A stretch of 64,000 bases of DNA from Clostridiales bacterium. GTDB lineage: Bacteria > Bacillota > Clostridia > Christensenellales > CAG-314. The stretch lies in NCBI GenBank assembly GCA_022508305.1, contig JAFLVM010000001.1, positions 125,347 to 189,346 of the forward strand. Reading direction: 5' to 3'. The position numbers were made by a program, and so were the translations under genes. Positions 3,882 to 47,703 of the stretch are shown here, piece after piece. The stretch's first letter is position 1; each line of letters begins with the position of its first letter. The notes below the pieces were generated by a model that had not been told where the DNA came from, searched no databases, and saw only the letters and a program-made list of their open reading frames with translations.

Positions 3882-3897
3882 CGTTCTGCTTATCTTA

Positions 3898-3925
3898 AAG
3901 ACTGTCAATATCGGCAGTCTTTTTG
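3898..3925 (+). terminator. intrinsic terminator
   Basis: AAGACTGTC / GGCAGTCTT stem (one G-T wobble) followed by a T-run. Confidence 0.7.
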
Positions 3926-4077
3926 CTTGTATGCTTTCAGTGATAGGGCATTCTCGGTGCGTTTGTAACTTCACCTATGTTTTTGTAATCTTTAATTCAT
4001 TTTGGCAAAAAAATTTACTTTGAAAATAGGAAAAAACACTATTATTCCGTGGGATTTTATGTTATAATGCAAATACT

Positions 4078-9322: not shown

Positions 9323-9898
9323 ATGAATTACGCTACACCGCAAATTGAAGAAATCTTTTTGAACTTTGAGTTGAACTGCGACAAGGCAATCGACTACATG
9401 AAGAACGAGTACAACCTTATGCGCGCAGGTCGTGCCAACCCCAAGTTGGTGGAGAACATTCGCGTTGACTACTACGGCGCGCCAACTCCCATCAACCAAA
9501 TGGGCAATATTTCTATTCCCGAACCGAGATGCCTGTTGATTACCCTTTGGGACAAATCGGCATTGAAGGACGTGGAAAAGGCAATTCTTGCGGCTAACAT
9601 TGGCGTAACTCCGCAAAACGACGGAACCGTGATCCGTTTGACCTTCCCCGTGCTTACTGAAGAACGCCGCAGAGACCTTGTAAAGCAGGTCAAGAAGCTT
9701 GCCGAGGACACCAAGGTGGTTTTGCGTAACGCAAGAAGAGACGCTATGGACGGCTTAAAGAAAGAGAAAAACGCCAAGACCGTTTCGGAAGACCTCATTG
9801 CTAACTACGAAGATGAAGTTGACAAGTCGCTCGCCAAACAAATCGAATTGGTTGACAAACTCGCTAAGGACAAAGAAACGGATGTAATGTCTGTGTAA
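9323..9898 (+). CDS. frr: ribosome recycling factor
   Basis: RAGRANPKLVENIRVDYYG motif. SD GGAGGG lies before ATG 9323 (track start is 9311). Confidence 0.96.
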   Translation: MNYATPQIEEIFLNFELNCDKAIDYMKNEYNLMRAGRANPKLVENIRVDYYGAPTPINQMGNISIPEPRCLLITLWDKSALKDVEKAILAANIGVTPQNDGTVIRLTFPVLTEERRRDLVKQVKKLAEDTKVVLRNARRDAMDGLKKEKNAKTVSEDLIANYEDEVDKSLAKQIELVDKLAKDKETDVMSV

Positions 9899-9905
9899 GC
9901 TACAA

Positions 9906-10103
9906 ATGAATTTCAATGACCTTATCGGACTTGAAGTTTGTGAAGCCCAAAGCGTTTTGCGTAAATCAGGTATAACAAACTTCAAGTTTGTTTATTATGT
10001 AGATAGGAAACAAGTAGACTTTGACAGGGAGTTGGTGACGGCAGTTCGCGAGCATGACGGAATGGTGGAGCTTGTGGTTTGCCGTTACAAATTGAAAATT
10101 TGA
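9906..10103 (+). CDS. 65-aa hypothetical protein (PASTA-like pattern by eye)
   Basis: It fits tightly between frr and uppS and its stop overlaps the uppS ATG (TGATG). There is no obvious SD. Confidence 0.4.
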   Translation: MNFNDLIGLEVCEAQSVLRKSGITNFKFVYYVDRKQVDFDRELVTAVREHDGMVELVVCRYKLKI

Positions 10104-10789
10104 TGAAAAACGTTCCTACACACGTAGCGATAATAATGGACGGCAACGGACGTTGGGCAAAGAGTAAAGGTCTCGCAAGGCTGCACGGTCACAAGCGCGG
10201 CTTGGACGTTGCCGAGCGAATAATTGACCGTTCGCTTGCCGTTGGCGTTAAGTACCTGTCGTTGTACGTCTTTTCTACGGAAAATTGGAAACGTCCCGAG
10301 TCGGAAGTAAACAACCTGTTTTCGTTGGCGGACAGATATCTTAGCCAATTTGAGAAGTTTTGTAAGGACAGAATTCGCGTTGTTGTGTCAGGCGAGCGAG
10401 AAGGATTGCCCTCAAAACTTGTGGAAAAAATTGACAAAATTCAACGCGAAACTTCTAATTTCAATGCAATTTGTGTAAATTTGTGCATAAACTACGGCGG
10501 ACAAAGGGAAATCGTCGAGGCTGTCAAGGCATTGAATAAAAAGGGCGAAGAAATCACCGTAGAGGGCATAAAAGACAATCTCTACAATAAGTTACCCGAG
10601 CCGGACGTGATAATTCGCACGGGCGGACAGAAGCGACTGTCCAACTACCTGCTTTTCCAAAGTGCTTACTCGGAACTGTTCTTTTCCGACACGCTTTGGC
10701 CTGATTTTACAACTGACGAGTACGATGGTATTTTGCAAGAATACGAGCACCGTACTCGCAATTTTGGAGGAATAGATGGCGCTAAATAA
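10103..10789 (+). CDS. uppS: undecaprenyl (isoprenyl) diphosphate synthase
   Basis: HVAIIMDGNGRWA and FSTENWKRP motifs. Confidence 0.96.
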   Translation: MKNVPTHVAIIMDGNGRWAKSKGLARLHGHKRGLDVAERIIDRSLAVGVKYLSLYVFSTENWKRPESEVNNLFSLADRYLSQFEKFCKDRIRVVVSGEREGLPSKLVEKIDKIQRETSNFNAICVNLCINYGGQREIVEAVKALNKKGEEITVEGIKDNLYNKLPEPDVIIRTGGQKRLSNYLLFQSAYSELFFSDTLWPDFTTDEYDGILQEYEHRTRNFGGIDGAK

Positions 10790-12883: not shown

Positions 12884-14178
12884 ATCTGCTTTGCGATTTC
12901 GCATCGGTAATGAAAACAATAGGCTACGTTTTGTTGGCGTTTGTAGTACTCATGGTAATGGTACTCATCCACGAAACGGGTCACTACACCGCAGGAAAGC
13001 TGTTGGGATTTCAAATAAATGAATTTGCAATCGGAATGGGTCCCAAAATTCTTTCCAAAAAGAAGAAAAACGGCGAAGTTTTTTCGCTGCGTTTGCTGCC
13101 GCTCGGCGGTTTTTGCGCATTTGAGGGGGAAAACGACGAGGTGGAAAACCCCAAGGCATTCAACAGACAAAAGCCTTGGAAACGCCTTATCGTGTTATTT
13201 TCCGGCGCCTTTTTCAACTTTGTGTCGGCTATTCTAATTGCAATTATCGTATTTTCGGCATACGGCGAAACGGTAGTAGTTGTGAACAACGTGTACGAGT
13301 ACGCTCCCGAGGCAAACTACCAACAAATACAAAGCGGTGACGTAATTTACAAGGTTAACGGTAGGCGCGTCTACATATTGGACAGCCTGAGTCGCTACTT
13401 TACCGATGATGAAATGACTTTGACAGTGCTTCGTCCTGACTGTGTAGACGAGAACGGCAACACGGTGTACGTTGAGAAAACGTTGACTAACATAACGCAA
13501 GGCACCTTTACTACTTTTACTCTTACCAAAGTTGACGGTAATTTTGCAGATGCAAACAATCGCAAATTGAAGGTTGGCGATACGGTATACAAAATAAACG
13601 ATCGGTTGATTTGTCAAGCCGACGACTGGGATGAAGGGTTGAATGCGGTTGGCGACACCTTTACGCTGACTGTGACCGACGGCGAGCATTATTACACCTA
13701 CGAGATGGCAAAAAGCTATTTTAACAGCGATATCGTTGCCGAACCGCAGGCGTATACAGGCATCGCAATGTCCATTCACTACGACAAATTCAAGTTTGGA
13801 TTTGGTGAAGTGCTGATTCGAGTCGTACCTTACTGCTGTGAAGTGGGAATGCTCGTTTTGCGTACTTTAGGAGGATTGTTAACAGGCGCGGTAGGTATTG
13901 AAAGCGTTGGTGGACCAATTACCACCATAAGCATGACTACGCAAATCGTGTCTACGGGCTTTGCAAACGTCTTGATGCTGATAGTGCTTATTTCCGTCAA
14001 CCTTGCAGTGTTCAACCTGCTGCCCGTACCTGCGCTTGACGGCTGTCAAATGGTGTTCGTCATTATCGAATGGATTGCGGGCAAACCAATCAACAGAAAG
14101 GTTCAGTCCTACATCAACGGCATAGGACTTGTAGTATTGATAGTGTTAATGTTGTTGATAGATATACTAAAACTATGA
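12877..14178 (+). CDS. rseP: RIP (site-2) zinc metalloprotease RseP/RasP
   Basis: HETGHY and NLLPVPALDG motifs with a central PDZ-like region. Confidence 0.92.
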   Translation: MLNLLCDFASVMKTIGYVLLAFVVLMVMVLIHETGHYTAGKLLGFQINEFAIGMGPKILSKKKKNGEVFSLRLLPLGGFCAFEGENDEVENPKAFNRQKPWKRLIVLFSGAFFNFVSAILIAIIVFSAYGETVVVVNNVYEYAPEANYQQIQSGDVIYKVNGRRVYILDSLSRYFTDDEMTLTVLRPDCVDENGNTVYVEKTLTNITQGTFTTFTLTKVDGNFADANNRKLKVGDTVYKINDRLICQADDWDEGLNAVGDTFTLTVTDGEHYYTYEMAKSYFNSDIVAEPQAYTGIAMSIHYDKFKFGFGEVLIRVVPYCCEVGMLVLRTLGGLLTGAVGIESVGGPITTISMTTQIVSTGFANVLMLIVLISVNLAVFNLLPVPALDGCQMVFVIIEWIAGKPINRKVQSYINGIGLVVLIVLMLLIDILKL

Positions 14179-15224
14179 GAAATCCAACCAAAGAAGTTAA
14201 AATACGCAATATTAGTATTGGCGGTAGCAATCCCATTGCCATTCAGTCAATGACCAACATGTCTGTAACGAACGTTGAGGCTACTTTGCGACAAATTGAA
14301 CAGTGTGTTGAGGCGGGCTGCGATATTATGCGCGTTGCTGTGCCCAACGCGGACGCGGCAAAGGCCTTTGCAATCGTACGAAAGCAAACGGCGACGCCTC
14401 TTGTTGCAGACATACACTTTGATTACCGCTTGGCGATTGCCGCCATTAAATCGGGAGCGGACAAAGTTCGAATAAACCCCGGCAATATGTCAATAGAGCA
14501 GTTGGACAGTGTGATAGACTGCGCAAAACTACACCGCGTACCTATTCGAATCGGCGTGAACAGCGGTTCTGTCAACAAGGACGCTCTGAAGGCCGCAAAT
14601 GGCGACAAGGTGAAAGCGCTTGCTAACAGTCTTATGCAATACGTTCGCCACTTTGAAGAGCGTAATTTCACTGATTTGGTTTTGTCGGTTAAAAGCAGCG
14701 ACGTGCGCGAAACTGTGGAAACTAACAAGTTTGTCGCTCAACTTGGCTATCCTCTGCACCTTGGAGTTACGGAAGCAGGGTTGCTCAATCAAGGCTTGGT
14801 AAAAAACTCAATTGGTATTGGCAGCTTGCTGTTGGACGGTATTGGCGACACGATTCGAGTTTCGCTAACGTCCGACCCCGTTGACGAGGTGTACGCTGCC
14901 AAAGATATTCTAACTTCGCTTGGACTGAGAAGCGGTGTGACCTTCGTGTCCTGCCCAAAGTGCGGGCGGTGCAGTATTGACCTTGAAAACGTAGCCAATG
15001 AGATTTACGACTATGTAAAAAACATTAACAAAAGCCTGAAAGTTGCTGTTATGGGCTGCGAAGTCAACGGTCCGGGTGAGTGTAGTGACGCAGACCTGGG
15101 TATGGCGGGCGCAAACGGCAGTTTCGTCTTTTTCAAAAAGGGACAAAGGTACAAAACGGTAGAGGCGGCTTCGGCTGCAAGTGAATTTAAAAAAGAAATT
15201 GATTTACTGACAAATGATAATTGA
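14175..15224 (+). CDS. ispG: 4-hydroxy-3-methylbut-2-enyl diphosphate synthase
   Basis: IGGSNPIAIQSMTN and CPKCGRC motifs. ATG 14175 overlaps the rseP stop. The track start at 14070 would lie inside rseP. Confidence 0.94.
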   Translation: MRNPTKEVKIRNISIGGSNPIAIQSMTNMSVTNVEATLRQIEQCVEAGCDIMRVAVPNADAAKAFAIVRKQTATPLVADIHFDYRLAIAAIKSGADKVRINPGNMSIEQLDSVIDCAKLHRVPIRIGVNSGSVNKDALKAANGDKVKALANSLMQYVRHFEERNFTDLVLSVKSSDVRETVETNKFVAQLGYPLHLGVTEAGLLNQGLVKNSIGIGSLLLDGIGDTIRVSLTSDPVDEVYAAKDILTSLGLRSGVTFVSCPKCGRCSIDLENVANEIYDYVKNINKSLKVAVMGCEVNGPGECSDADLGMAGANGSFVFFKKGQRYKTVEAASAASEFKKEIDLLTNDN

Positions 15225-39678: not shown

Positions 39679-41388
39679 ATGATTAAAAATTTGGTTATCA
39701 ACAACATAGCGCTCATTGACCACTTGGAAATTGACTTTCAGGAAGGTTTGACTGTTTTGAGCGGCGAAACGGGCAGCGGCAAATCCATTATTGTAGATTC
39801 GCTTGCTTTTGTACTGGGCGACAGGGCGGACAAAACCCTTATCAAGTACGGAGAGGACGCTGCAGAAGTAACGGCACTGTTTGAGGTAGAAGAAAGCTCC
39901 CCAATCCTTGCAAAACTCAACGAATACGGCTACGGCGACGATGCGGAAATCCTTATTTCTCGCAAAATGACCGCTATCGGCAAAAATGAAATCCGTATAC
40001 AGGGCAAAACGGCAACTCTTGCAATACTCAAAGAGGTTTGCGCCGAACTTGTAGACATTTTCGGTCAAGGGCAGCATTTGGCGCTACTTAACGAGAAAAA
40101 TCAACTGTCCGTATTGGACGCTTTTTGCAATTTTCACGGAGTAGACGTTCAACTAAGATCGGAACTGAACCCCAAACTTTCCGCTGTAAACAAGGAGTTG
40201 AGAAGTTTCGGCGGAAGCGACGCCGAACGGGAACGCCTCATTGACATTCTTAAATATCAAATTGACGAAATAGTATCGGCAGACCTTTCCGAAGTAGAGG
40301 AAGAAGAGCTACTTGCCATGCACAAGCGTATGGTAAACGTCGAAAAACTTTCCGTTGCAATCGGACAAGCCGTACACAGTCTCAACGGTGAGCAGGGAGC
40401 TATATCACAGGTTGCGCAATCCGGCAACTTATTGCGTTCTATTTCTAATTTGGAAGATAGCGCAGACGAACTGTCCGAGCGTTTACAATCCACGCGTTTG
40501 GAAATAGAGGACGTAAGCGCGCAACTGGAAGACATACTAACGTCATTGGAATTCAGCCCTGCAGAAGTGGACAAAATGGAAGCGCGGTTGGAAAAAATCC
40601 GCCAACTTAAACGCAAATACGGCGGTAGCGTAGCGGACGTACTCAAATTTTTGCAAGAATCGCAAGCAAAGTACGACAGCTTGATAAACTCTGCCGCGCG
40701 TATTGAGGAACTGAACGAGCAAAAGCAAAAGGTACTCCGTGAGATGTACGCGCTTGCAGAGAAGAAATCCGCCGAACGAACATCAACTGCCGAAAAGCTG
40801 TCGAAACGTATAATGCGTGAGTTGGACGACCTTGGAATGCGCGGAACCAACTTCACGGTACATTTCAACGAGCAGCCCACGTTCGAGGAATATTGTTTGT
40901 CGCCCTCATCGGACGGATTTGACAAAGTGGAGTTTTTGATGTCGGCAAACGTAGGCGAACCGTTGAAACCGCTTGCCAAGGTCATATCGGGCGGCGAAAT
41001 GTCACGCTTTATGCTCGCCGTCAAAAACATTACTGCTCTTGCCGAAAAGATACCTACAATGATTTTCGACGAAATCGACACGGGTATTTCCGGCAATATG
41101 GCACAAATGGTGGCAAACAAGTTGGCAAACGTATCAGGTAACAAACAGGACGGCTATCAATGTATAGTTATCACTCACCTGCCGCAAATCGTTGCTATGG
41201 CGGACGTTAACCTGTTCATTAGCAAATTCGAGCGCGACGGCAAAACCTACACGTCAGTTGAAGTTTTGTCCGACTACGAGCAGCGCGCGAAAGAGGTTTG
41301 CCGCCTCATGGGTGGCGTAGGTGAACATGCAATCGTCAGCGCCAAGGAACTTCTTGATTTTTCTCGAAAATATAAAGACAGCTTATAA
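39679..41388 (+). CDS. recN: DNA repair protein RecN
   Basis: Walker A GETGSGKSI, coiled-coil middle, and C-terminal SGGEMSR / IFDEIDTGISG motifs. Confidence 0.96.
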   Translation: MIKNLVINNIALIDHLEIDFQEGLTVLSGETGSGKSIIVDSLAFVLGDRADKTLIKYGEDAAEVTALFEVEESSPILAKLNEYGYGDDAEILISRKMTAIGKNEIRIQGKTATLAILKEVCAELVDIFGQGQHLALLNEKNQLSVLDAFCNFHGVDVQLRSELNPKLSAVNKELRSFGGSDAERERLIDILKYQIDEIVSADLSEVEEEELLAMHKRMVNVEKLSVAIGQAVHSLNGEQGAISQVAQSGNLLRSISNLEDSADELSERLQSTRLEIEDVSAQLEDILTSLEFSPAEVDKMEARLEKIRQLKRKYGGSVADVLKFLQESQAKYDSLINSAARIEELNEQKQKVLREMYALAEKKSAERTSTAEKLSKRIMRELDDLGMRGTNFTVHFNEQPTFEEYCLSPSSDGFDKVEFLMSANVGEPLKPLAKVISGGEMSRFMLAVKNITALAEKIPTMIFDEIDTGISGNMAQMVANKLANVSGNKQDGYQCIVITHLPQIVAMADVNLFISKFERDGKTYTSVEVLSDYEQRAKEVCRLMGGVGEHAIVSAKELLDFSRKYKDSL

Positions 41389-41538: not shown

Positions 41539-42648
41539 ATGAAGAAAAATTTACCCATTTTCGTAGCTATATTATTGTTACTTGTTGCAGTGTTTACGGT
41601 GTTTTTTGTTGCGCGTAATGGCATGACCCAAACTGTCAGCACCAAGTACGTTGCGTCCAATCAGGACTTAGGCGGTTTCATTGGTGACGTCAGCGACTTG
41701 TTCGTGAATGGCAGTAGTTCAAAAATCAACGAGGAAGTGTATCTTGGCGGTTATCCTTTAGGTATCACCATTGACGGTGACGGCGTTACCGTAATTGGAC
41801 TAAACGAGTTTGTTGCAGCAGATGGCACGCTTTGTTGTCCTGCGCTAAATGCGGGTATAGAAATCAACGACGTAATAGTGGAGTTAAACGGCAGGAAAAT
41901 TTACGGTTCTGCCAAGCTTTCCGAAATTGCTGCAGGTTCAAACGGACAAGAGTTACCGCTTAAATATCTGCGACAGGGCGTTATGAAGGAAACGACGATT
42001 ACGCCCGTAAAAGATTTGACGTCAGGACAATACCGTCTTGGACTGTGGACGCGAGATTCTTCCAGCGGCATAGGTACGTTGACTTACGTTAGAAAAAACT
42101 TGAAATTCGGTAGCCTCGGACATCCTATTACCGACGCAAAGGGTTCAATCATCACATGCAAAAACGGCGGCGTGTTTGACTGTACCATTGACGGTATCGA
42201 AAAAGGACAAAAGGGCGCGGCTGGTGAACTCAAAGGCGGTTTTTGTTTTGACAGGCGTATAGGCAACATTTACGCCAACAACAAGTTCGGCGCGTTTGGC
42301 ACATTCAACACGCTTCCGCAATTTTGCGACAACGCGATAGAAGTGGCAGATATAAGCGAAATCAAGCCCGGTAAGGCGCAAATTTACTGCACGCTGGGCA
42401 GTGAAGGTCGCAAGTGCTACGACATAGAAATCGTCAAGGTGACCCCGCAAAGCTCACGCGATGACAAGGGCATGGTTATTCACGTAACAGACCCCGAGCT
42501 TTTAGAAAAAACCGGAGGCATAGTGCAGGGTATGAGCGGCAGCCCAATCGTTCAAAACGGCAAGCTTGTAGGAGCTGTAACCCACGTGTTCGTCAACGAC
42601 CCGACACGCGGCTACGGCATCTACGCCAAGTGGATGATGACTAATTAG
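41539..42648 (+). CDS. spoIVB: SpoIVB signalling serine peptidase (S55)
   Basis: N-terminal TM helix, PDZ-like region, and catalytic GMSGSPI. Position after recN. Confidence 0.93.
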   Translation: MKKNLPIFVAILLLLVAVFTVFFVARNGMTQTVSTKYVASNQDLGGFIGDVSDLFVNGSSSKINEEVYLGGYPLGITIDGDGVTVIGLNEFVAADGTLCCPALNAGIEINDVIVELNGRKIYGSAKLSEIAAGSNGQELPLKYLRQGVMKETTITPVKDLTSGQYRLGLWTRDSSSGIGTLTYVRKNLKFGSLGHPITDAKGSIITCKNGGVFDCTIDGIEKGQKGAAGELKGGFCFDRRIGNIYANNKFGAFGTFNTLPQFCDNAIEVADISEIKPGKAQIYCTLGSEGRKCYDIEIVKVTPQSSRDDKGMVIHVTDPELLEKTGGIVQGMSGSPIVQNGKLVGAVTHVFVNDPTRGYGIYAKWMMTN

Positions 42649-42650
42649 AT
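42610..42650 (+). repeat. left copy of the direct repeat (functional spoIVB 3-prime tail, GYGIYAKWMMTN*)
   Basis: 35/41 nt identical to 47038-47078 by hand alignment. Confidence 0.8.
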
Positions 42651-42792
42651 ATTACGAGACATTGTATTTTTGCTAACGTTTAATGACCTCCTTTTCTTTT
42701 ACGTTAGCGATGTAATGATTATCAAATAATAAAGTACAAACGTGAAAAATATAACAAATAACAATTATCAAATCCAAACGGTCAAATTGAGT

Positions 42793-42821
42793 GTCAGACT
42801 TGATCTGACCTTTTTGTTTTT
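42793..42821 (+). terminator. intrinsic terminator inside the island's left arm (serves spoIVB in its present context)
   Basis: GTCAGA-CTTGA-TCTGAC hairpin followed by CTTTTTGTTTTT. Confidence 0.6.
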
Positions 42822-43108
42822 ACATTATAGCAAACTTTATTTCCCAAAGCATCCGCTTTTCCGCCATAATGGTGCCGACTTGTACACTTAATTATTTAGT
42901 AAAATAAATCATATTTTGCCTATGTAAATAAATTTATTGCTCTCATCTGACTAACATTAACCTTATTTTTATGTTTAGATTTTATTATCAGATGTGGCAT
43001 ATAGTCTTAATACAAAATAGCTGTGTAATAATTAATTTTTTTTTGTTGCTTAACAAAGCGCAAATTTAAAAAGTATATATACTGGATTTCAATAATTCCA
43101 CGAAAGAG

Positions 43109-43140
43109 TTTATTAAAATAACTCGTTATTATTTGGAGGA
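43109..43140 (+). promoter_or_regulatory. left arm of a 32-nt perfect inverted repeat: palindrome AATAAC-TC-GTTATT plus SD GGAGGA
   Basis: TTTATTAAAATAACTCGTTATTATTTGGAGGA ends 3 nt before ATG 43144. It is the exact reverse complement of 46954-46985. Confidence 0.85.
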
Positions 43141-43143
43141 CTT

Positions 43144-43521
43144 ATGTGTATTGAGGTTGTTTCAAAGTACGTATCAACAATATATTACATTTTAATGTTT
43201 ACAATAAGTGCAACAACTTTAGCTATAGCCATTGTTAAACTTTTCCCTAAAATAAAATGTCGATATAACGTGGCAAATAATAATGGACAAGATGGAATAG
43301 ACATCTATTTTATTAACTTACGTAGCAGAACTGTTATAATAGATAAAATTAAATTTGTCCAAGAAGGTAATGTTATTAATATCAAACATGTGTCAAACTG
43401 CAAGATTATATCTCAACAAGACGCGAGATATTTTCAGCAAGTAAATTTCTCTGATAATTATATAAAAGTTATTGTAGAGGACATTGAGGGTAATAAATAT
43501 GTTGCAAAAAGAATCAAATGA
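43144..43521 (+). CDS. 125-aa single-pass membrane protein, unknown family
   Basis: SD GGAGGA. TM helix YILMFTISATTLAIAIVKLF followed by a beta-rich soluble part. Overlaps the next gene by 23 nt. Confidence 0.7.
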   Translation: MCIEVVSKYVSTIYYILMFTISATTLAIAIVKLFPKIKCRYNVANNNGQDGIDIYFINLRSRTVIIDKIKFVQEGNVINIKHVSNCKIISQQDARYFQQVNFSDNYIKVIVEDIEGNKYVAKRIK

Positions 43522-45952
43522 AAACATTACATCTATAGTAGACAGAGAATTACAAAAAGCAAAAATTAATGAACGAATTAGGGAATCGGTGACAACAGAT
43601 GCGATACTTATCGTAAATGAAAATGGCTCAGGTGCCAGCTATTTTGTTAAAACCGTATGCGGTAAAGAAAATATATTTTATATAAAAAGCGATTATACCG
43701 GAAAATTTGTACAAAGTTTATTTAAAGCAACTTTTGCTTGGGATAAAGTCGGCTTTTTTAACTTTGTAAAATTGAGAGAAATTGAAAACGAAAAATGCGA
43801 ATTAATTGATACTAATATCAATTTTACGGACAATGATCGTCTTTTGATAGAAAAATTTATCAATCTTTTCAACAATCAAACAACTTTAACCTATCGTTCG
43901 GCATTAGACAAAAGATATCATATGAACTTGGAAAGTATAGTTATAGATTATCTCAAACAATTGCCAACGAGATACATTGTATACAACCATTTCGAAACAG
44001 GATCGGAATGTGAAATGGTCAATTCTTTTATTCAACAAGTTGATAATAAAATACATATAATTGTTGCAAACTCTTGCGAATATTATCAAAATTTTGAAGC
44101 AGAGAAAATTGAAATTTATAACTTTAATAAAAACGAGAAAAACTATTTTAAAGAGTTACTCAAGAGATTGGTGCCAATTATAAGTGAAACTGTATTGTCC
44201 ACTCTTGCTGAAGAATTGTATGATATATATAAAGGTTCACCCGAGAATTTAGTGGAACTAATAAATAATTGTCGTGACGAAATACATAATTGTACAGAAG
44301 ATGAAGAAATAGCCGAGGCGATACGTGATAAATATAATTCGCGTAATAATATAATTGAAAAAATAATAAACAAACAAATACTTTCTGTTCTATATTTATC
44401 AAGGACTCCGTTAGAATATAAATTTGTTGCTAATCTAATATGTTCTCAATACGGCATCAGTCAAGTTAGATTTGAGGAACATTTGAGCGAACTTACGAGT
44501 TGCGGATATGTAGAGATTAATTTTAACGATCTTTTCATATCTAAGCAGTCTAATAATTATTTTACACTGAATGTTGTTAGTACCAGAGAAGAAAGTATAA
44601 AACTATGCTATCAAGTTTTGTCGCTGATCAACCGTTGTGATAACGTTGACAAACAAACAAACGCCGATGCTATAAAATTGATATCCAATATTCTGTTAGA
44701 CTTAAAACATTCTGGGATAGAGTTTGATGGCATTTATTACGAACAAGTAAAAAGATATGCAGACTTTTTGCGTAACTCACACGATTTATGCACTGCATCG
44801 GAGTACTATGCTTTATGCTCAGATAAAATAAACAATATTCCATATTGTGAAATTCTTGACATTGCAAAAATACTGTACAATTACGGTTATTACACAGAGT
44901 GTTACAAACTTTTAGTTGGAAATTCATTTGACATGTTATCAAATGAAATTCAATTTGAACGTTTTTTATTAATTGCAAACTGTGAGACCGTCGGAAATAA
45001 TAATATAGCCATTCAATATTATGAAAAAGCAATTAATTTACACACAAAAAAACAGTTGATTGCTATTGGTGGCAAATTCCTTGCGCAAGGCGAGTCCAAA
45101 ATTGCTAATCGTACAATTCTAAATCAAGAGTATGAAAAATGTGTTGCAAAATATGAAGATAAACCAGATACAATAGGATATGTTGCCTTGCTTAGAAATG
45201 CCTTGGACTTTCAAAACAACGAGACAGCAATACAAACTATGCAAAGGGGTCTTGAATTAGCAAAAACCCAATGTTTGCAAGAAGAAATTTACAAAATTCA
45301 ACAAAATCTTGCTTTAAATTATATTAAGGCTGGTCAATATGATTACGCAGAGAAATTGTTGCAAATGGTACTTGCATACTGCGAAAAAAAAGTACGAAAA
45401 GATACGTCATATCCACTGATTAATCTTGCCGTAGTTAATTTGTATAAATATTTTAATTGCCAAAATTACGAATATGCGTTAAATGCTATGGAATATGGAC
45501 GTAAAGCTATTTCTTATGCTTGTTCATATTACTCTCGCACACTATCCAATTTGCAATATTTAACTGCGCTATCGGTATTAAGCAGTTGTGAAAATAACCC
45601 ATACAATATATCTCATAATCGTATAGTATCATTGCGTGAAAAAATATATGAGGATATCATAAAAAACAACAATAGAAATGACTTCAGAGTCGTTGTGCGC
45701 ACCTATCTGTCGTTAATTGCAAGTGCCAATATTTGTGGCGATTTTGAGGCTGCTAAAATATACCTGCGTGAGCTATACTCAAGACAATATAACGAAATCG
45801 GTAGAGAGGCATGTAAAGTTAACCTTTTGATACGTCAATTACAAATGGACGATTTAGAACCCATGCTTGAGCCGACAATAGATAAAAGCTGTGAAAATTA
45901 CCACAAGGAAATAAGATTTGAGCCATGGATGATCAGCTTAACGCATTATTAG
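43499..45952 (+). CDS. STAND/NB-ARC-like NTPase (degenerate Walker motifs) + winged-helix-like segment + C-terminal TPR-like repeats
   Basis: SD GAGGG lies 8 nt before ATG 43499 (TTG 43484 is also possible). Motif order and spacing, numbered from the 43484 start: NENGSGAS (res 45-52), RYIVYNHFE (163-171), HIIVANS (191-197), GSP (250-252). This is followed by about 450 aa of helical Y/A/L/N-rich repeats. Confidence 0.75.
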   Translation: MLQKESNENITSIVDRELQKAKINERIRESVTTDAILIVNENGSGASYFVKTVCGKENIFYIKSDYTGKFVQSLFKATFAWDKVGFFNFVKLREIENEKCELIDTNINFTDNDRLLIEKFINLFNNQTTLTYRSALDKRYHMNLESIVIDYLKQLPTRYIVYNHFETGSECEMVNSFIQQVDNKIHIIVANSCEYYQNFEAEKIEIYNFNKNEKNYFKELLKRLVPIISETVLSTLAEELYDIYKGSPENLVELINNCRDEIHNCTEDEEIAEAIRDKYNSRNNIIEKIINKQILSVLYLSRTPLEYKFVANLICSQYGISQVRFEEHLSELTSCGYVEINFNDLFISKQSNNYFTLNVVSTREESIKLCYQVLSLINRCDNVDKQTNADAIKLISNILLDLKHSGIEFDGIYYEQVKRYADFLRNSHDLCTASEYYALCSDKINNIPYCEILDIAKILYNYGYYTECYKLLVGNSFDMLSNEIQFERFLLIANCETVGNNNIAIQYYEKAINLHTKKQLIAIGGKFLAQGESKIANRTILNQEYEKCVAKYEDKPDTIGYVALLRNALDFQNNETAIQTMQRGLELAKTQCLQEEIYKIQQNLALNYIKAGQYDYAEKLLQMVLAYCEKKVRKDTSYPLINLAVVNLYKYFNCQNYEYALNAMEYGRKAISYACSYYSRTLSNLQYLTALSVLSSCENNPYNISHNRIVSLREKIYEDIIKNNNRNDFRVVVRTYLSLIASANICGDFEAAKIYLRELYSRQYNEIGREACKVNLLIRQLQMDDLEPMLEPTIDKSCENYHKEIRFEPWMISLTHY

Positions 45953-46950
45953 ATTTTAAGACGTGCATTTACTGTCTTTAATAAGATGTCGATAAAATCC
46001 TTAAAGCTTATACCAATTAATTTACAAACTTCGCCCACATCGCTATTTTCACCGATAGCCGGCACGGTATTTGCTTCTAACAAATAAAACTTACCGTTGT
46101 TATAACGAAAATCAAGTCTAGCATAATCTCGAAGTCCCAAATGTTTAAAAACCATTTGGGATATTTGTTTTAATTCTTCAACTTGAGTTGAAGATATAAG
46201 ACATTCTGGGGCAACATACACTCTACGATGAAGCGCCTTAATTTCTGCATCGCAAATCTCTTTATCCAAGTAGAATTTACTATCAACACCAATGGCTAAT
46301 GGTTGATTGATCACAATATTTTCGTTGCCAACAAGAAAAACGGTAAATTCAAAACCAGAAATATATTCCTCAATCAAAATTGTTTTAAACGTTTGCGATA
46401 ACTTCTCAAGCTGCTTAAGCAAACTTTTCATATCATGACATAACGACTCCGCATCAATCCCTATGGACGAACCTTCATTATTGGGTTTTACAATGACAGG
46501 AAAGTTAAATTCACATATTTCATTTGGTAATTTGCCATTGCCAAAATACAATATACTACGTGGCACATTGGCATCAGTTAGCACGTGCGCCAATTTGTTT
46601 GTACAATATTTATCACTTACTAAAAGTGAAGCAAAAGCATCTGAGCCAGAAAATTTATCTGTTATTATTTCCAAAAGTATAGGAGTTTGTCCGCGCTTGT
46701 GTTGTTGTGTTAAACCATCATTAAAATTCAAGAAAACGCAATTATCGTATTTTTTGTTCTGGTTTACAGCTTCAATTAGTTTATCAACTCCACCATAATA
46801 CTCACAATCGTACCCCAATGAATTGATTACTTTAACAATTGCATCTATGTTTGCTTGCTTAAAATGGTCATTGTATAAAATGCCATTTCCTAAATAACTT
46901 TTGAATTTTTCTCTACAATCGCATACTACGTAGTACTTTGTTCTATTCAT
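45949..46950 (-). CDS. D-alanine--D-alanine-ligase-like ATP-grasp enzyme (atypical N-terminal domain)
   Basis: PVIVKPNNEGSSIGI, ILIEEYISGFEFTVFLVG and YARLDFRYNNGKFYLLEANTVPA motifs. The same SD and leader as gene 43144. Confidence 0.85.
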   Translation of the reverse strand: MNRTKYYVVCDCREKFKSYLGNGILYNDHFKQANIDAIVKVINSLGYDCEYYGGVDKLIEAVNQNKKYDNCVFLNFNDGLTQQHKRGQTPILLEIITDKFSGSDAFASLLVSDKYCTNKLAHVLTDANVPRSILYFGNGKLPNEICEFNFPVIVKPNNEGSSIGIDAESLCHDMKSLLKQLEKLSQTFKTILIEEYISGFEFTVFLVGNENIVINQPLAIGVDSKFYLDKEICDAEIKALHRRVYVAPECLISSTQVEELKQISQMVFKHLGLRDYARLDFRYNNGKFYLLEANTVPAIGENSDVGEVCKLIGISFKDFIDILLKTVNARLKI

Positions 46951-46953
46951 TTT

Positions 46954-46985
46954 TCCTCCAAATAATAACGAGTTATTTTAATAAA
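46954..46985 (-). promoter_or_regulatory. right arm of the 32-nt perfect inverted repeat (palindrome + SD) before the ATP-grasp gene
   Basis: Exact reverse complement of 43109-43140. A TATAAT (minus strand, plus coordinates 46992-46997) lies just upstream. Confidence 0.85.
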
Positions 46986-47037
46986 AAAATAATTATATTT
47001 GAGAATTTTTTTACAGATAAACACTTGTAAAGTTATC

Positions 47038-47078
47038 GGTTACGGCATCTACGCGAAATGGATGCTTACGAATTAGAT
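47038..47078 (+). repeat. right copy of the direct repeat: orphan spoIVB 3-prime tail fragment (GYGIYAKWMLTN*)
   Basis: It is in frame over 13 codons plus the stop. Five codons differ from the left copy and four of those changes are synonymous. No homology to spoIVB upstream of it. Confidence 0.8.
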
Positions 47079-47105: not shown

Positions 47106-47144
47106 GCAGCAGCGCATACAACAATGTATGGGCTGCTTTCGTTT
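47106..47144 (+). terminator. hairpin + T-rich tract after the orphan spoIVB tail (possible ancestral spoIVB terminator)
   Basis: GCAGCAGCGCATACA-ACAA-TGTATGGGCTGC followed by TTTCGTTT. It overlaps the ATG of the next ORF. Confidence 0.4.
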
Positions 47145-47703
47145 GCTAACAAATTACTGCGAGGACGTTTGGGATAAGCTACGCAACAACAAGTGGAAGT
47201 CGATACTCACTGCGCTTGTGTGCGTTATTGGCATTGCCTTTGGCGCGGTGCTGTTCAACGTGTTCAAATACGGCTGGTGGTTTGACAACCGTGTAAGCTA
47301 CGCCGAAAAGCTTTTTCAAGGTGGTTTTGCCCTGTTTTTTTCCTTTCTTTTGTGGACTGCCGCGTTTTATTTCTGCGTACTGTTAAGCAACCTTGTACCC
47401 GTAACACGGTTTCTGAACTACGTTTTGCTATTCGTTGCGTGCTTTTACTGCGGCGCTAACACGGCGGCAGCAATATACTGTTGGACTGTGTGGGGAGTAC
47501 TGTTCGCAATCTTCGCCACGCTTTGGGAAGTGATAGGGTACTACTTGGCTTGCATTGCCACCTGTGCAGAACCCGCAAGCTGTCGTAAACTAAACGAGGC
47601 ATTTTGTGATTTTAAACCGACGCTCGTGGTGTTGATTGTCGCCTTTGTAATAAAGATTGTTGGATTTTTCGTCATTTTAAAAATAATAACTGCTATTATT
47701 TGA
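47128..47703 (+). CDS. polytopic membrane protein, possibly SpoIIM family
   Basis: About 5 TM helices. The N-terminal pattern ...KWKSILTALVCVIGIAFGAVLFNV resembles SpoIIM by eye. It neighbours deoB, as spoIIM does in B. subtilis. No SD. Confidence 0.6.
   Translation: MGCFRLLTNYCEDVWDKLRNNKWKSILTALVCVIGIAFGAVLFNVFKYGWWFDNRVSYAEKLFQGGFALFFSFLLWTAAFYFCVLLSNLVPVTRFLNYVLLFVACFYCGANTAAAIYCWTVWGVLFAIFATLWEVIGYYLACIATCAEPASCRKLNEAFCDFKPTLVVLIVAFVIKIVGFFVILKIITAII

What the first reader, a model, noticed from the sequence alone, without database searches (positions are those of the whole stretch)
42610..47078. 4.4-kb AT-rich insertion bracketed by a duplicated spoIVB 3-prime coding tail, with no integrase
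The last 12 codons and stop of spoIVB (42610-42650, GYGIYAKWMMTN*) recur at 47038-47078 (GYGIYAKWMLTN*). By hand alignment 35/41 nt are identical. Five codons differ and four of those changes are synonymous, so the second copy looks like a once-translated tail rather than a chance match. The DNA between the copies is far more AT-rich than the flanks. Hand counts of G+C per 60-nt line are 15 at 43141 and 13 at 45001, against 31 at 42541. This is the footprint of an element that integrates into the 3-prime end of a gene and supplies a replacement tail (attL/attR). However, no integrase, recombinase or transposase ORF is present, and no ORF of 60 aa or more lies in the 460-bp left arm.
Basis: seen in the sequence. 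Interest (0 to 1): 0.8.

Follow-up and report, generated by a model that had tools for sequence, protein, structure and literature searches.

The report
Integrase-less island carrying invertible gene cassette
A 4.4-kb piece of foreign DNA sits in the tail of the sporulation gene spoIVB, has no recombinase gene of its own, and carries a three-gene block between perfect inverted repeats; in related gut bacteria the same kind of block is found in both orientations, which swaps which genes face a fixed promoter.

Summary
The last 12 codons and stop of spoIVB (42609-42650) recur at 47037-47078 with 36/42 nt identical. The DNA between them has GC 0.31 against 0.46 elsewhere, and GC3 of 0.22-0.28 against 0.51-0.57. 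No recombinase gene is present. In 21 of 32 related genomes spoIVB runs directly into the gene that here starts at 47128, and none carries the island genes or a second tail. A different island at the same site in another genome (L008) shares the first ~215 nt after the stop codon at 91% identity, while the adjacent spoIVB sequence is only 74% identical. That island holds a relic of a Xer-like tyrosine recombinase, and a third (L007) holds a pseudogene of it.

A perfect 32-nt inverted repeat (43109-43140 / 46954-46985) bounds a 3,877-nt cassette of two convergent units: a small membrane protein plus a STAND/TPR protein, and a Ddl-like ATP-grasp enzyme. Homologous cassettes elsewhere occur in both orientations between near-identical strains. 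Most lie beside an intact Xer-like recombinase, and in one family a single promoter points into the cassette. Whether this copy still flips is untested.

The parts
41539..42648 (+). spoIVB (369 aa from the ATG; intact, ends ...GYGIYAKWMMTN*)
   Evidence: Pfam Peptidase_S55 E 8e-76 plus a PDZ domain. The exact product is on record in ENA contig k141_1646503.
42609..42650 (+). attL-like copy of the direct repeat. This is the in-frame spoIVB tail, inferred to be element-supplied from near its left edge onward.
   Evidence: repeat D1. The L008 comparison has one mismatch in 42607-42655, against 20 in the preceding 106 nt. The ...WMMTN ending is unique among 33 tails.
42651..42866 (+). Conserved non-coding left arm of the island. 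It contains a hairpin at 42672-42708 (GCTAACGT...ACGTTAGC) and an intrinsic terminator for spoIVB at 42780-42821.
   Evidence: 91% identical to L008 over 42651-42830, and conserved blocks in L028. Terminator found. Fold z-score -2.0.
42867..43108 (.). Unassigned AT-rich spacer. It lies where related islands carry the recombinase gene or its relic.
   Evidence: No ORF, no recombinase relic, no robust similarity to flanks of other cassettes.
43109..43140 (+). Left inverted repeat: TTTATTAAAATAACTCGTTATTATTTGGAGGA. It holds the dyad AATAAC-TC-GTTATT and the Shine-Dalgarno sequence.
   Evidence: 32/32 complementary to 46954-46985. Only two copies in the window, 0 expected. The core resembles the inverted repeats of homologous cassettes.
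43144..43521 (+). Small protein of 125 aa with an N-terminal transmembrane helix
   Evidence: 37-40% identical to the small gene of homologous cassettes. Hydropathy profile. Weak PADLOC PycTM hit, E 0.007.
43499..45952 (+). 817-aa STAND-type NTPase-like protein with a C-terminal TPR solenoid. Its Walker A motif lacks the lysine (GSGAS).
   Evidence: AF2 model pLDDT 86.5. Best PDB hit is 6mfv, a STAND-TPR protein, E 1e-9; also CED-4, NLR resistosomes and Avs5. A family member hits NB-ARC at E 5e-10. Only 14 relatives among 1.84 billion representatives. Walker A.
45949..46950 (-). 333-aa ATP-grasp enzyme of the D-Ala-D-Ala-ligase fold, convergent with the 817-aa gene (stop codons overlap)
   Evidence: Pfam Dala_Dala_lig_C E 4e-31. 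NCBIfam Ddl models score 120 bits against cut-offs of 243-404.
46954..46985 (-). Right inverted repeat, identical to the left one
46986..47036 (.). 51-nt right flank between the cassette and the displaced tail. By eye it contains TTTATC-N18-TATAAT on the minus strand.
   Evidence: Read from the sequence. It does not pass the consensus promoter scan. Its similarity to the promoter flank of other cassettes is at chance level.
47037..47078 (+). attR-like copy of the direct repeat: a displaced, untranslated spoIVB tail (GYGIYAKWMLTN*)
   Evidence: Its peptide is the commonest tail among the relatives. It is followed after 51 nt by the conserved neighbour gene.
47128..47703 (+). 191-aa membrane protein gene, the ancestral downstream neighbour of spoIVB (host DNA; marks the empty-site junction)
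   Evidence: Homolog directly follows spoIVB in 21 relatives.

Best explanation
Window 42651-47036 is a horizontally acquired island, most likely inserted by site-specific recombination into the last 12 codons of spoIVB. The crossover lay near the left edge of the 42-nt repeat. The element supplies the tail that is now translated (42609-42648) and a terminator behind it. The host's original tail was pushed 4.4 kb downstream (47037-47078), just in front of its old neighbour gene. The island no longer encodes any recombinase. It is therefore a decayed, CIME-like remnant that keeps both att-like ends. Its cargo is one 3,877-nt cassette bounded by perfect 32-nt inverted repeats that contain the shared 5'-UTR and ribosome-binding site of two convergent units. 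One unit is a small membrane protein plus a STAND/TPR protein; the other is a Ddl-like ATP-grasp enzyme. In homologous cassettes a Xer-like tyrosine recombinase (inferred from adjacency, not assayed) recombines the two repeats and flips the block. In the one family where the flanks were examined, a single promoter outside the cassette then drives one unit or the other, as in the phage Mu G segment. What is shown: the repeat, the foreign composition, the empty sites, the shared arm, the recombinase relics in sister islands, and inversion of homologous cassettes. What is inferred: the recombination mechanism of insertion, the loss of the recombinase gene from this copy, and any present-day flipping here, which would need an enzyme encoded elsewhere in the genome. 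My estimate that it still flips is about 0.4. The biological role is a guess: a phase-variable defence or envelope switch.
For: Repeat and composition. Empty site in 21 of 32 relatives, with no island genes and no second tail anywhere else. The element boundary falls at the repeat: identity to L008 is 74% in the 300 nt of spoIVB before the repeat, 93% in the tail and 91% in the arm, and synonymous mismatches stop at 42606. Sister islands at the same site: L008 has a 48-aa relic of a Xer-like recombinase just past the shared arm. L007 has a multiply frameshifted pseudogene of it, followed 450 nt later by an IR-like site and a gene start at the contig end. L004 has a second cassette type between 20-nt repeats with the same core. 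L006 has an intact Phage_integrase gene 76 nt after the spoIVB stop, so the junction is a hotspot. Cassette family: all three genes are homologous to those of other cassettes, at 34-59% identity. Clean inversions occur between near-identical assemblies in three families: L036 vs L039 (3,905 nt at 100%, flanks at 99.9% reversed), L041 vs L040 and L037 vs L035; L044 vs L045; L047/L048 vs L049/L050. One contig (L054) has the same 77-nt flank at both ends, which I read as both orientations being present in one sample. A Xer-like recombinase lies ~90 nt from the cassette in the P0006 and P0009 families and ~560 nt away in P0022. The best sigma-70 match in L036 (TTGAAA-N17-TAAAAT with TG) lies between the recombinase gene and the repeat and points inward. 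The gene-specific bases after the repeat stay with their gene, so the crossover is inside the repeat. The P0056 family inverts with no recombinase gene within 8 kb, which shows that action in trans is possible. C. difficile RecV is a published precedent (PMC5386303, PMC9286219).
Against: No recombinase is available to test. The repeat is only 86% identical and its longest perfect run is 14 nt. No excision junction or circular form can be examined. The right ends of the sister islands (L008, L028, L004) are outside the fetched DNA, so no second attR is known. Around recombinase-plus-cassette modules elsewhere there is no duplicated gene tail, so the Xer-like enzyme looks like an invertase and the true integrase is unidentified. 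For this organism only one orientation is seen (window and L033). The Logan contig L043 merely breaks at the repeats, as any k=31 assembly graph would. No consensus promoter lies next to either repeat in the window. The Walker A lysine of the STAND-like protein is missing, and no known defence family matches.
Confidence: 0.7

Rival explanations
1. Same island, opposite geometry. The crossover was at the right end of the repeat (the shared AATTAGAT). The translated tail is then entirely host DNA and the downstream copy is a tail-like stretch brought in by the element.
For: The first 28 nt of copy 1 are identical to the tails of L001 (empty site) and L008. Copy 2 departs from the very conserved host string GCCAAGTGGATG at two bases. 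An 8-nt identical block at the right end has the size of a tyrosine-recombinase overlap region (my own knowledge).
Against: Five of the six differences are at third codon positions, so both copies evolved as translated tails. An element copy that is never translated would not show that. The last 14 nt of copy 1 match L008 with one mismatch and L001 with four or more, and identity to L008 continues unbroken into the arm. Copy 2 encodes the commonest host tail, WMLTN.
Confidence: 0.15
2. The island is not dead. It is still mobile as a hitch-hiker, excised and integrated (or co-mobilised after tandem accretion) by an integrase encoded elsewhere in the genome or by an incoming element. This is the behaviour that defines CIMEs.
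For: Both att-like repeats are retained. The site is used repeatedly by different elements, including one with an intact integrase (L006). The arm is 91% identical between two hosts whose spoIVB is 74% identical, so the arm-bearing element transferred horizontally more recently than the hosts diverged. CIME definition and accretion model: PMC5704250.
Against: The repeats are 14% diverged. No integrase of matching specificity is known. L006 shows no tail duplication. The arm motif is absent from IMG/VR and the JGI metagenome contigs, and the island matches nothing in the phage and plasmid collections.
Confidence: 0.2
3. The cassette in this window is a frozen relic. With its recombinase gene gone it is locked in the present orientation, and the inverted repeats are leftovers.
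For: There is no recombinase in the island. The same gene has decayed in L007 and L008. Only one orientation is seen for this organism. No clear promoter is found on either flank. The Walker A lysine is lost.
Against: The repeats are still 32/32 identical and all three ORFs are intact. The P0056 family flips without a nearby recombinase. L004 also keeps a perfect repeat pair without a local recombinase.
Confidence: 0.45
4. The duplication was made by general (RecA) recombination. A circular DNA carrying a spoIVB tail from another species integrated by a single Campbell-type crossover, or by homology-facilitated illegitimate recombination, with no site-specific enzyme involved.
For: It would also give a direct repeat of a diverged tail around foreign DNA. 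No integrase is present.
Against: The homology is only 42 nt at 86% identity, with a 14-nt longest perfect run. From general knowledge that is far below efficient RecA substrates. The repeat starts and ends sharply. The same junction is hit by several unrelated elements, one with an integrase and two with recombinase relics.
Confidence: 0.06
5. The repeat is a coincidence or a local tandem duplication, and the AT-rich DNA is native.
For: None beyond the shortness of the repeat.
Against: E = 1.9e-5. The differences follow a synonymous pattern. GC3 differs by 0.25-0.3 from the flanks. The island is absent from 32 relatives.
Confidence: 0.02

Closest known systems
CIMEs (cis-mobilizable elements): decayed integrative elements that keep attL and attR. 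They were first described beside ICESt1/ICESt3 at the 3' end of fda in Streptococcus thermophilus (definition from PMC5704250; the fda example from my own knowledge).
   Same: The island lies in the 3' end of a protein-coding gene and is bounded by direct repeats that include the gene's tail, so the gene stays intact. It has no integrase or transfer genes. The site is used repeatedly.
   Different: The target gene (spoIVB) and the host clade (uncultured gut Clostridia) are new. The parental integrase-bearing element has not been seen. Mobilisation in cis is untested. The repeats are more diverged (86%) than typical att cores.
Phage Mu G segment and P1 C segment (Gin/Cin inversion systems; my own knowledge)
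   Same: A ~3-4 kb invertible block lies between ~30-nt inverted repeats. It holds two convergent gene sets whose 5' ends abut the repeats. In the P0006 family a fixed promoter sits outside, so inversion selects which set is expressed.
   Different: The associated recombinase here is a Xer-like tyrosine enzyme, not a serine invertase. The repeats carry the 5'-UTR and ribosome-binding site rather than lying inside a shared coding N-terminus. The two sets are unrelated functions, not alternative tail fibres. In the window the recombinase gene is missing.
RecV-dependent switches of Clostridioides difficile (cwpV, flgB, pdcB and others; PMC5386303, PMC9286219, PMC2784873)
   Same: A tyrosine recombinase in a Clostridium relative acts in trans on several inverted-repeat-flanked switches that have no recombinase gene beside them. 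The window, L004 and the P0056 family would need the same arrangement.
   Different: RecV switches are short (~150-300 bp) promoter or regulatory elements upstream of one operon. Here whole genes are inverted and two units alternate.
hsdS 'epigenetic invertons' with Xer-like invertases (PsrA/CreX; PMC7096588, PMC7672463) and other gene-altering programmed inversions (PMC9881135)
   Same: A Xer-family recombinase gene lies next to an invertible coding segment in mobile or defence contexts. Both orientations coexist in populations.
   Different: Those inversions reshuffle domains of one gene family. Here complete, unrelated genes swap places at a promoter. PMC9881135 does not mention ATP-grasp genes.
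STAND NTPases with TPR sensors (PDB 6mfv; antiviral Avs proteins, for example 9jap)
   Same: The predicted fold is an N-terminal NB-ARC/AAA-like domain, then a winged-helix region, then a TPR solenoid. The protein is paired with a small membrane protein that could be an effector.
   Different: There is no match to any PADLOC model. The Walker A lysine is absent in the window protein. No effector domain is fused.
Intervening elements of sporulation genes (skin in sigK, SPbeta in spsM and others; my own knowledge)
   Same: Foreign DNA is inserted in a sporulation gene of an endospore former.
   Different: Those elements split the gene and carry a recombinase that excises them in the mother cell. 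Here spoIVB remains complete and no recombinase is present.

Membership tests
CIME / decayed integrative island | Bounded by direct repeats (attL/attR) that include the 3' end of the target gene | tested here: met
   42609-42650 vs 47037-47078, 36/42 nt, E 1.9e-5.
CIME / decayed integrative island | No integrase, excisionase or transfer genes inside | tested here: met
   Pfam, NCBIfam, PADLOC and tblastn with recombinases find none.
CIME / decayed integrative island | Foreign origin, with an empty site in relatives | tested here: met
   21 of 32 relatives have spoIVB directly followed by the 191-aa gene homolog. GC3 is 0.22-0.28 against 0.51-0.57.
CIME / decayed integrative island | Descent from an element that encoded its own integrase | tested here: inconclusive
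   Sister islands carry a relic (L008) and a pseudogene (L007) of a Xer-like recombinase next to the tail. That enzyme family makes no tail duplications elsewhere, so it may be only the invertase.
CIME / decayed integrative island | Excision or co-mobilisation by an integrase supplied in trans or in cis | not testable with these tools
   Needs read data or an experiment.
Site-specific DNA inversion switch (G-segment type) | Segment bounded by a pair of inverted repeats that hold a recombinase core site | tested here: met
   The repeats are 32/32 identical and hold the dyad AATAAC-TC-GTTATT. The core is shared with the repeats of six other cassette lineages.
Site-specific DNA inversion switch (G-segment type) | Both orientations occur | tested here: inconclusive
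   Met for homologous cassettes in three families. For the window's own cassette only one orientation is on record.
Site-specific DNA inversion switch (G-segment type) | A dedicated recombinase | tested here: not met
   Absent from the island and from the 64-kb window at tblastn E < 0.01. Present beside homologous cassettes. The rest of the genome could not be searched.
Site-specific DNA inversion switch (G-segment type) | A fixed promoter outside the segment that reads into it | tested here: inconclusive
   Clear in L036: TTGAAA-N17-TAAAAT with TG, 10/12 matches, next to the repeat. No consensus site lies next to either repeat in the window.
STAND NTPase (817-aa protein) | NB-ARC/AAA-type nucleotide-binding domain followed by helical domains and a repeat sensor | tested here: met
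   AF2 model with pLDDT 86.5. Foldseek hits 6mfv at E 1e-9, and also CED-4, NLRs and Avs5. NB-ARC and ATPase_2 hits in family members. TPR hits.
STAND NTPase (817-aa protein) | Intact Walker A motif GxxxxGK[ST] | tested here: not met
   The window protein has GSGAS. The nearest relatives have GAGTS and GAGST. More distant members keep GKS or GKT.
D-alanine--D-alanine ligase (333-aa protein) | Scores above the curated Ddl family cut-offs, with both N- and C-terminal Ddl domains | tested here: not met
   The C-terminal ATP-grasp domain hits at E 4e-31. The best NCBIfam Ddl score is 120 bits against cut-offs of 243-404. There is no PF01820 N-terminal hit. It is an ATP-grasp ligase of the Ddl fold with unknown substrates.
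Known anti-phage defence system (PADLOC 2.0) | A significant match of a component to a defence-system model | tested here: not met
   Only weak hits: PycTM at E 0.007 and Csa3 at E 0.013. None for eight homologs of the large protein.
Prophage, plasmid, ICE or IME | Integrase plus replication, transfer or virion genes, or similarity to known elements | tested here: not met
   No such genes. No blastn match in 50,697 phage or 72,556 plasmid records. No relative in IMG/VR.

The most novel reading that the evidence does not exclude
The three genes are an undescribed phase-variable module of gut Clostridia. A DNA flip by a Xer-like recombinase alternates the cell between two states. In one, a STAND/TPR sensor is made with a small membrane effector, giving an abortive-infection-like immunity. 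In the other, a Ddl-like ATP-grasp ligase is made that remodels a cell-envelope precursor. In this genome the module is an orphan switch, carried on an integrase-less island in spoIVB and still flipped in trans by a recombinase encoded elsewhere.
Probability: 0.25. Interest if true: 0.75.

Novelty: new variant of a known kind. Interest (0 to 1): 0.55.

Why it matters
The island itself is an ordinary kind of object: a decayed integrative element at a gene's 3' end. It does add spoIVB to the list of protein-gene targets, and the site is a recurrent hotspot for defence-like cargo in an uncultured Clostridia clade. The cargo is the more interesting part. It belongs to a rare family: the large protein has 14 relatives among 1.84 billion representatives. 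In this family whole-gene cassettes demonstrably invert between near-identical strains, and the inversion places either a STAND/TPR-plus-membrane-protein pair or a Ddl-like ligase behind one promoter. Whole-gene alternation by a Xer-like recombinase with this cargo was not found in the literature searched. It would extend the known range of phase variation in gut Firmicutes. It also gives a concrete, testable case of a switch that may depend on a recombinase acting in trans.

Tried and rejected
1. I looked for a recombinase relic in the window's two non-coding arms with a permissive tblastn. Only noise came back. A short 'HNGADL' match lies on the wrong strand and is not conserved in L008.
2. 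By eye, the 51-nt right flank resembled the promoter flank of the P0006 family (GTTTATC...AAATATAA). Shuffle tests put this at chance (p about 0.43), so I dropped it. A 29-nt match between 42867-43108 and the promoter-less flank of that family has p of 0.005-0.01 before correction for multiple tests. I treat it as unproven.
3. The attL junction resembles the P0056 repeat at 14/20 positions. That gives p = 0.04 in one of ten comparisons, which is not significant.
4. I searched for duplicated gene tails around recombinase-plus-cassette modules in other genomes. None were found.
5. The arm motif, the window's inverted repeat and the large protein were searched in IMG/VR, and the arm motif in the JGI metagenome contigs. 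Nothing was found.
6. The island has no blastn match among phage or plasmid records.
7. No Rfam family or tRNA gene was found in the region.
8. A profile search with the cassette-associated recombinases was meant to detect a copy on the organism's 1.097-Mb contig. The 120 listed hits were all close relatives from other organisms, so this is uninformative.
9. The skin-type intervening-element reading is rejected: spoIVB is intact and no recombinase is present.
10. The IMEX (host XerCD at dif) reading was considered and not pursued. By eye the repeat is unlike the B. subtilis dif sequence as I recall it, and it lies inside a coding tail.

Full report
**1. The observation**

The window encodes recN (39679-41388) and then spoIVB (41539-42648; Peptidase_S55 E 8e-76). 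The last 12 codons, the stop and two further bases (42609-42650) recur at 47037-47078 with 36 of 42 bases identical. blastn-short gives E = 1.9e-5 against the downstream 21 kb. Five codons differ and four of the changes are synonymous. Five of the six changed bases are third positions. That is the pattern of two sequences that both evolved as translated tails.

GC falls from 0.45-0.50 to 0.26-0.35 between the copies. GC is 0.307 for 42651-47036 and 0.456 for the rest of the window. GC3 is 0.22-0.28 for the three island genes and 0.51-0.57 for five flanking genes. No recombinase or transposase domain is present, and there is no tRNA gene or Rfam family.

**2. Empty sites and hotspot**

The exact SpoIVB protein occurs on ENA contig k141_1646503 (L033). 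A scan of species-representative genomes gave 32 related spoIVB loci from uncultured gut Clostridia, with SpoIVB 42-83% identical.

- In 21 of them spoIVB is followed after 34-430 nt by the homolog of the 191-aa membrane protein gene that starts at 47128 in the window, and then by deoB and usually dacB. None has any of the three island genes.
- No other locus has a second tail copy.
- The downstream copy in the window encodes GYGIYAKWMLTN*, the commonest tail among the relatives. The translated copy ends in ...WMMTN*, which is seen nowhere else.
- The downstream copy's stop lies 51 nt before the 191-aa gene. The corresponding gap in the empty site of L001 is 56 nt.
- Several relatives carry other DNA at this junction. 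L006 has a 3.8-kb insert that starts with an intact Phage_integrase gene 76 nt after the stop. L005 has a 1.27-kb AT-rich insert. L004, L007, L008 and L009 have long AT-rich islands.

The spoIVB 3' end is therefore a recurrent insertion site in this clade.

**3. Where the foreign DNA begins**

L008 has a different island of at least 10 kb with defence-like cargo right after its spoIVB stop. It shares the window's first ~215 nt after the stop. Identity between the window and L008 changes along the region:

| Segment | Identity to L008 |
|---|---|
| 300 nt of spoIVB before the repeat | 74% |
| The repeat (tail) | 93% |
| 42651-42830 (arm) | 91% |

Mismatches at every second or third codon continue up to 42606. 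After that there is one mismatch in the next 50 nt and nine in 194 nt. The translated tail and the arm behind it therefore belong together as element DNA that is younger than the divergence of the two hosts. This is the classical geometry: the crossover lies near the left edge of the repeat, the element supplies the replacement tail, and the host tail is displaced.

The arm contains a conserved hairpin (42672-42708) and an intrinsic terminator (42780-42821). This gives spoIVB a new transcription end.

**4. What happened to the recombinase**

- In L008, just past the shared arm, the minus strand holds a 48-aa relic. It is 67% identical to residues 238-285 of a Xer-like tyrosine recombinase.
- In L007, the same position holds a full-length but multiply frameshifted pseudogene of that recombinase.
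- In the window, the 242 nt between the arm and the cassette contain no detectable relic.

The simplest reading is progressive decay of one gene in a family of related islands. [quoted passage not shown]

One caution applies. Around intact copies of this recombinase elsewhere I found no duplicated gene tails. It may therefore be only the cassette's invertase, and the enzyme that made the spoIVB duplication remains unidentified.

**5. The cargo is an invertible-type cassette**

A perfect 32-nt inverted repeat (43109-43140 / 46954-46985) bounds 3,877 nt. It has exactly two copies in 64 kb, with none expected by chance. Each copy ends in GGAGGA three or four bases before a start codon. The two start codons belong to two convergent units:

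- a 125-aa membrane protein plus an 817-aa protein, on the plus strand;
- a 333-aa ATP-grasp protein, on the minus strand.

Homologs of the ATP-grasp protein (35-59% identity) sit strikingly often on contigs of about 3.8-4.0 kb. Such contigs end inside the repeats (L034, L043, L055). That is what a k=31 assembly graph does at a repeat of 31 nt or more, so it shows only that the repeats are a conserved feature.

On longer contigs the same three-gene block recurs, with the large protein 34-38% and the small protein 37-40% identical. Most copies lie beside a 292-301-aa Xer-like recombinase (TIGR02224/TIGR02225 at about 230 bits, below the equivalog cut-offs). It is about 90 nt from the cassette in the P0006 and P0009 families and about 560 nt away in P0022.

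**6. Evidence that such cassettes flip**

| Comparison | Result |
|---|---|
| L036 vs L039 | Flanks 99.9% identical in reverse; 3,905-nt cassette 100% identical in forward orientation; junctions overlap by the repeat |
| L041 vs L040; L037 vs L035 | Same pattern |
| L044 vs L045 | 5,250-nt cassette that also carries a GH77 gene; 41-nt repeats; 98.8-100% identity throughout |
| L047/L048 vs L049/L050 | 3,681-nt cassette; 20-nt repeats; no recombinase within 8 kb |

One SPAdes contig (L054) carries the same 77-nt outer flank at both ends. I read this as both orientations being present within one sample.

In the P0006 family the two flanks differ.

- The flank next to the recombinase gene holds the best sigma-70 match of the region: TTGAAA-N17-TAAAAT with an upstream TG, ending 5 nt before the repeat and pointing inward.
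- The other flank carries, by eye, a terminator-like hairpin.

The gene-specific bases after the repeat (GGGGATTTATG for the ATP-grasp gene, GGGGAATTATG for the small gene) stay with their gene while the flanks swap. The crossover is therefore inside the repeat.

This is the logic of the phage Mu G segment, which I cite from my own knowledge. A fixed outside promoter faces an invertible block with two inward-facing gene sets, and inversion chooses between them.

The repeat cores of all lineages share the pattern [AG][AT]TAA[CT]T - 2-4 nt - [AT]TATTAT. This includes a second cassette type in the spoIVB island of L004, where a 289-aa ORF faces a spermidine-synthase-like gene between 20-nt perfect repeats.

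**7. What the genes are**

- **The 817-aa protein.** A word-indexed search of 5.8 billion proteins finds only the protein itself. Full HMMER against 1.84 billion representatives finds 14 relatives. An AlphaFold model built on 11 sequences has mean pLDDT 86.5. Its best PDB match is the STAND-TPR protein 6mfv (E 1e-9), followed by TPR scaffolds, CED-4, plant NLR resistosomes and Avs5. Family members hit NB-ARC, ATPase_2, AAA_16 and TPR models. The Walker A lysine is missing in the window protein and its closest relatives but present in more distant ones.
- **The 125-aa protein.** It has one N-terminal transmembrane helix and a weak PADLOC PycTM hit at E 0.007.
- **The 333-aa protein.** It has the Ddl C-terminal ATP-grasp domain (E 4e-31) but scores far below every curated Ddl/Van model.
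- **Defence models.** None matches the large or small proteins tested.

I infer a sensor plus membrane effector on one side and a ligase acting on an unknown, possibly envelope, substrate on the other. That is a hypothesis.

**8. State of the window's copy**

All three ORFs are intact and the repeats are identical. However, there is no local recombinase, no consensus promoter beside either repeat, and only one orientation on record for this organism (the window and L033).

Action in trans is possible in principle. The P0056 family flips without a neighbouring recombinase gene, and C. difficile RecV acts on many distant switches (PMC5386303, PMC9286219). I could not search the rest of this genome. 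I put the chance that this copy still flips at about 0.4.

**9. Novelty and verdict**

The island is a new member of a known kind: a CIME-like remnant at a gene's 3' end, at a new target gene. The cargo is a new variant of a known kind: a G-segment-type inversion switch, associated with a Xer-like tyrosine recombinase, with an undescribed and rare STAND/TPR + membrane protein versus ATP-grasp content. Literature searches for inversion systems with ATP-grasp or STAND cargo found nothing specific.

Interest is moderate, at 0.55.

Noticed in passing
L006:9559-13340: A 3.8-kb insert lies between spoIVB and the 191-aa gene homolog. It starts with an intact Phage_integrase + SAM_3 gene (9634-10539) 76 nt after the spoIVB stop and also encodes a 735-aa cysteine-rich surface protein. 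It has normal GC and no duplicated tail.
   Followed up: partly
L004:11038-21035: A spoIVB-adjacent island holds a HipA-like kinase with an XRE partner, a second IR-bounded cassette, an AAA ATPase with an RloB-like partner, and a KAP-like NTPase. The cassette (12884-14656) lies between 20-nt perfect repeats TACAATAACTCTTTATTATT, with a 289-aa ORF facing a spermidine-synthase-like gene. No recombinase gene was found in the 10 kb held.
   Followed up: partly
L008:10979-20975: An AT-rich island of at least 10 kb follows spoIVB. By ORF inspection only, it holds a membrane protein plus a nucleotidyltransferase-like pair, a radical-SAM-like gene, and an AAA + RloB-like pair homologous to the one in L004. 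Its right end is out of reach.
   Followed up: partly
L009:11020-11045: spoIVB is cut about 20 codons early (...AVTHV*) by AT-rich DNA that encodes what looks, by eye, like an ImmA/IrrE-type protein. This is a case where the insertion does not restore the tail.
   Followed up: no
L044:6558-11807 and L045:6558-11807: In this lineage the invertible block also carries a GH77 4-alpha-glucanotransferase gene in front of the ATP-grasp gene. The 41-nt repeat includes the start codon. The called GH77 product is 467 or 486 aa depending on orientation.
   Followed up: partly
L047-L050:7934-11614: This cassette has only the ATP-grasp and STAND/TPR genes called. It lies between ABC/FtsX transporter genes and a giant RHS-repeat protein gene. 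It occurs in both orientations with no recombinase gene within 8 kb.
   Followed up: partly
L056:1-330: A homologous cassette lies 190 nt downstream of what reads, by eye, as a tRNA-Leu gene and its terminator (no tRNA scan was run on this locus). This is another classical integration site. No recombinase gene is on the 4.5-kb contig.
   Followed up: no
L054:1-77 and 3896-3972: A single SPAdes contig carries the same 77-nt promoter flank at both ends of the cassette. I read this as both orientations coexisting in one metagenome sample.
   Followed up: partly
window:43550-43580: The Walker A motif of the 817-aa STAND-like protein reads GSGAS, with no lysine. Its closest relatives also lack the lysine, while more distant family members keep GKS or GKT.
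   Followed up: partly
L028:11117-21113: HAN102 carries the conserved arm 33 nt after its spoIVB stop. The arm is followed by normal-GC genes for very large secreted, cysteine-repeat and, by eye, subtilisin-like proteins. The 191-aa gene and deoB are not within 10 kb.
   Followed up: no
L029 and L031 (same MAG, Lapin-032 bin128): spoIVB is split over two short contigs, and the neighbouring genes lie in unusual orientation: the 191-aa gene, deoB and dacB are divergent upstream, and recN is inverted downstream. This may be a rearrangement or a mis-assembly at this hotspot.
   Followed up: no
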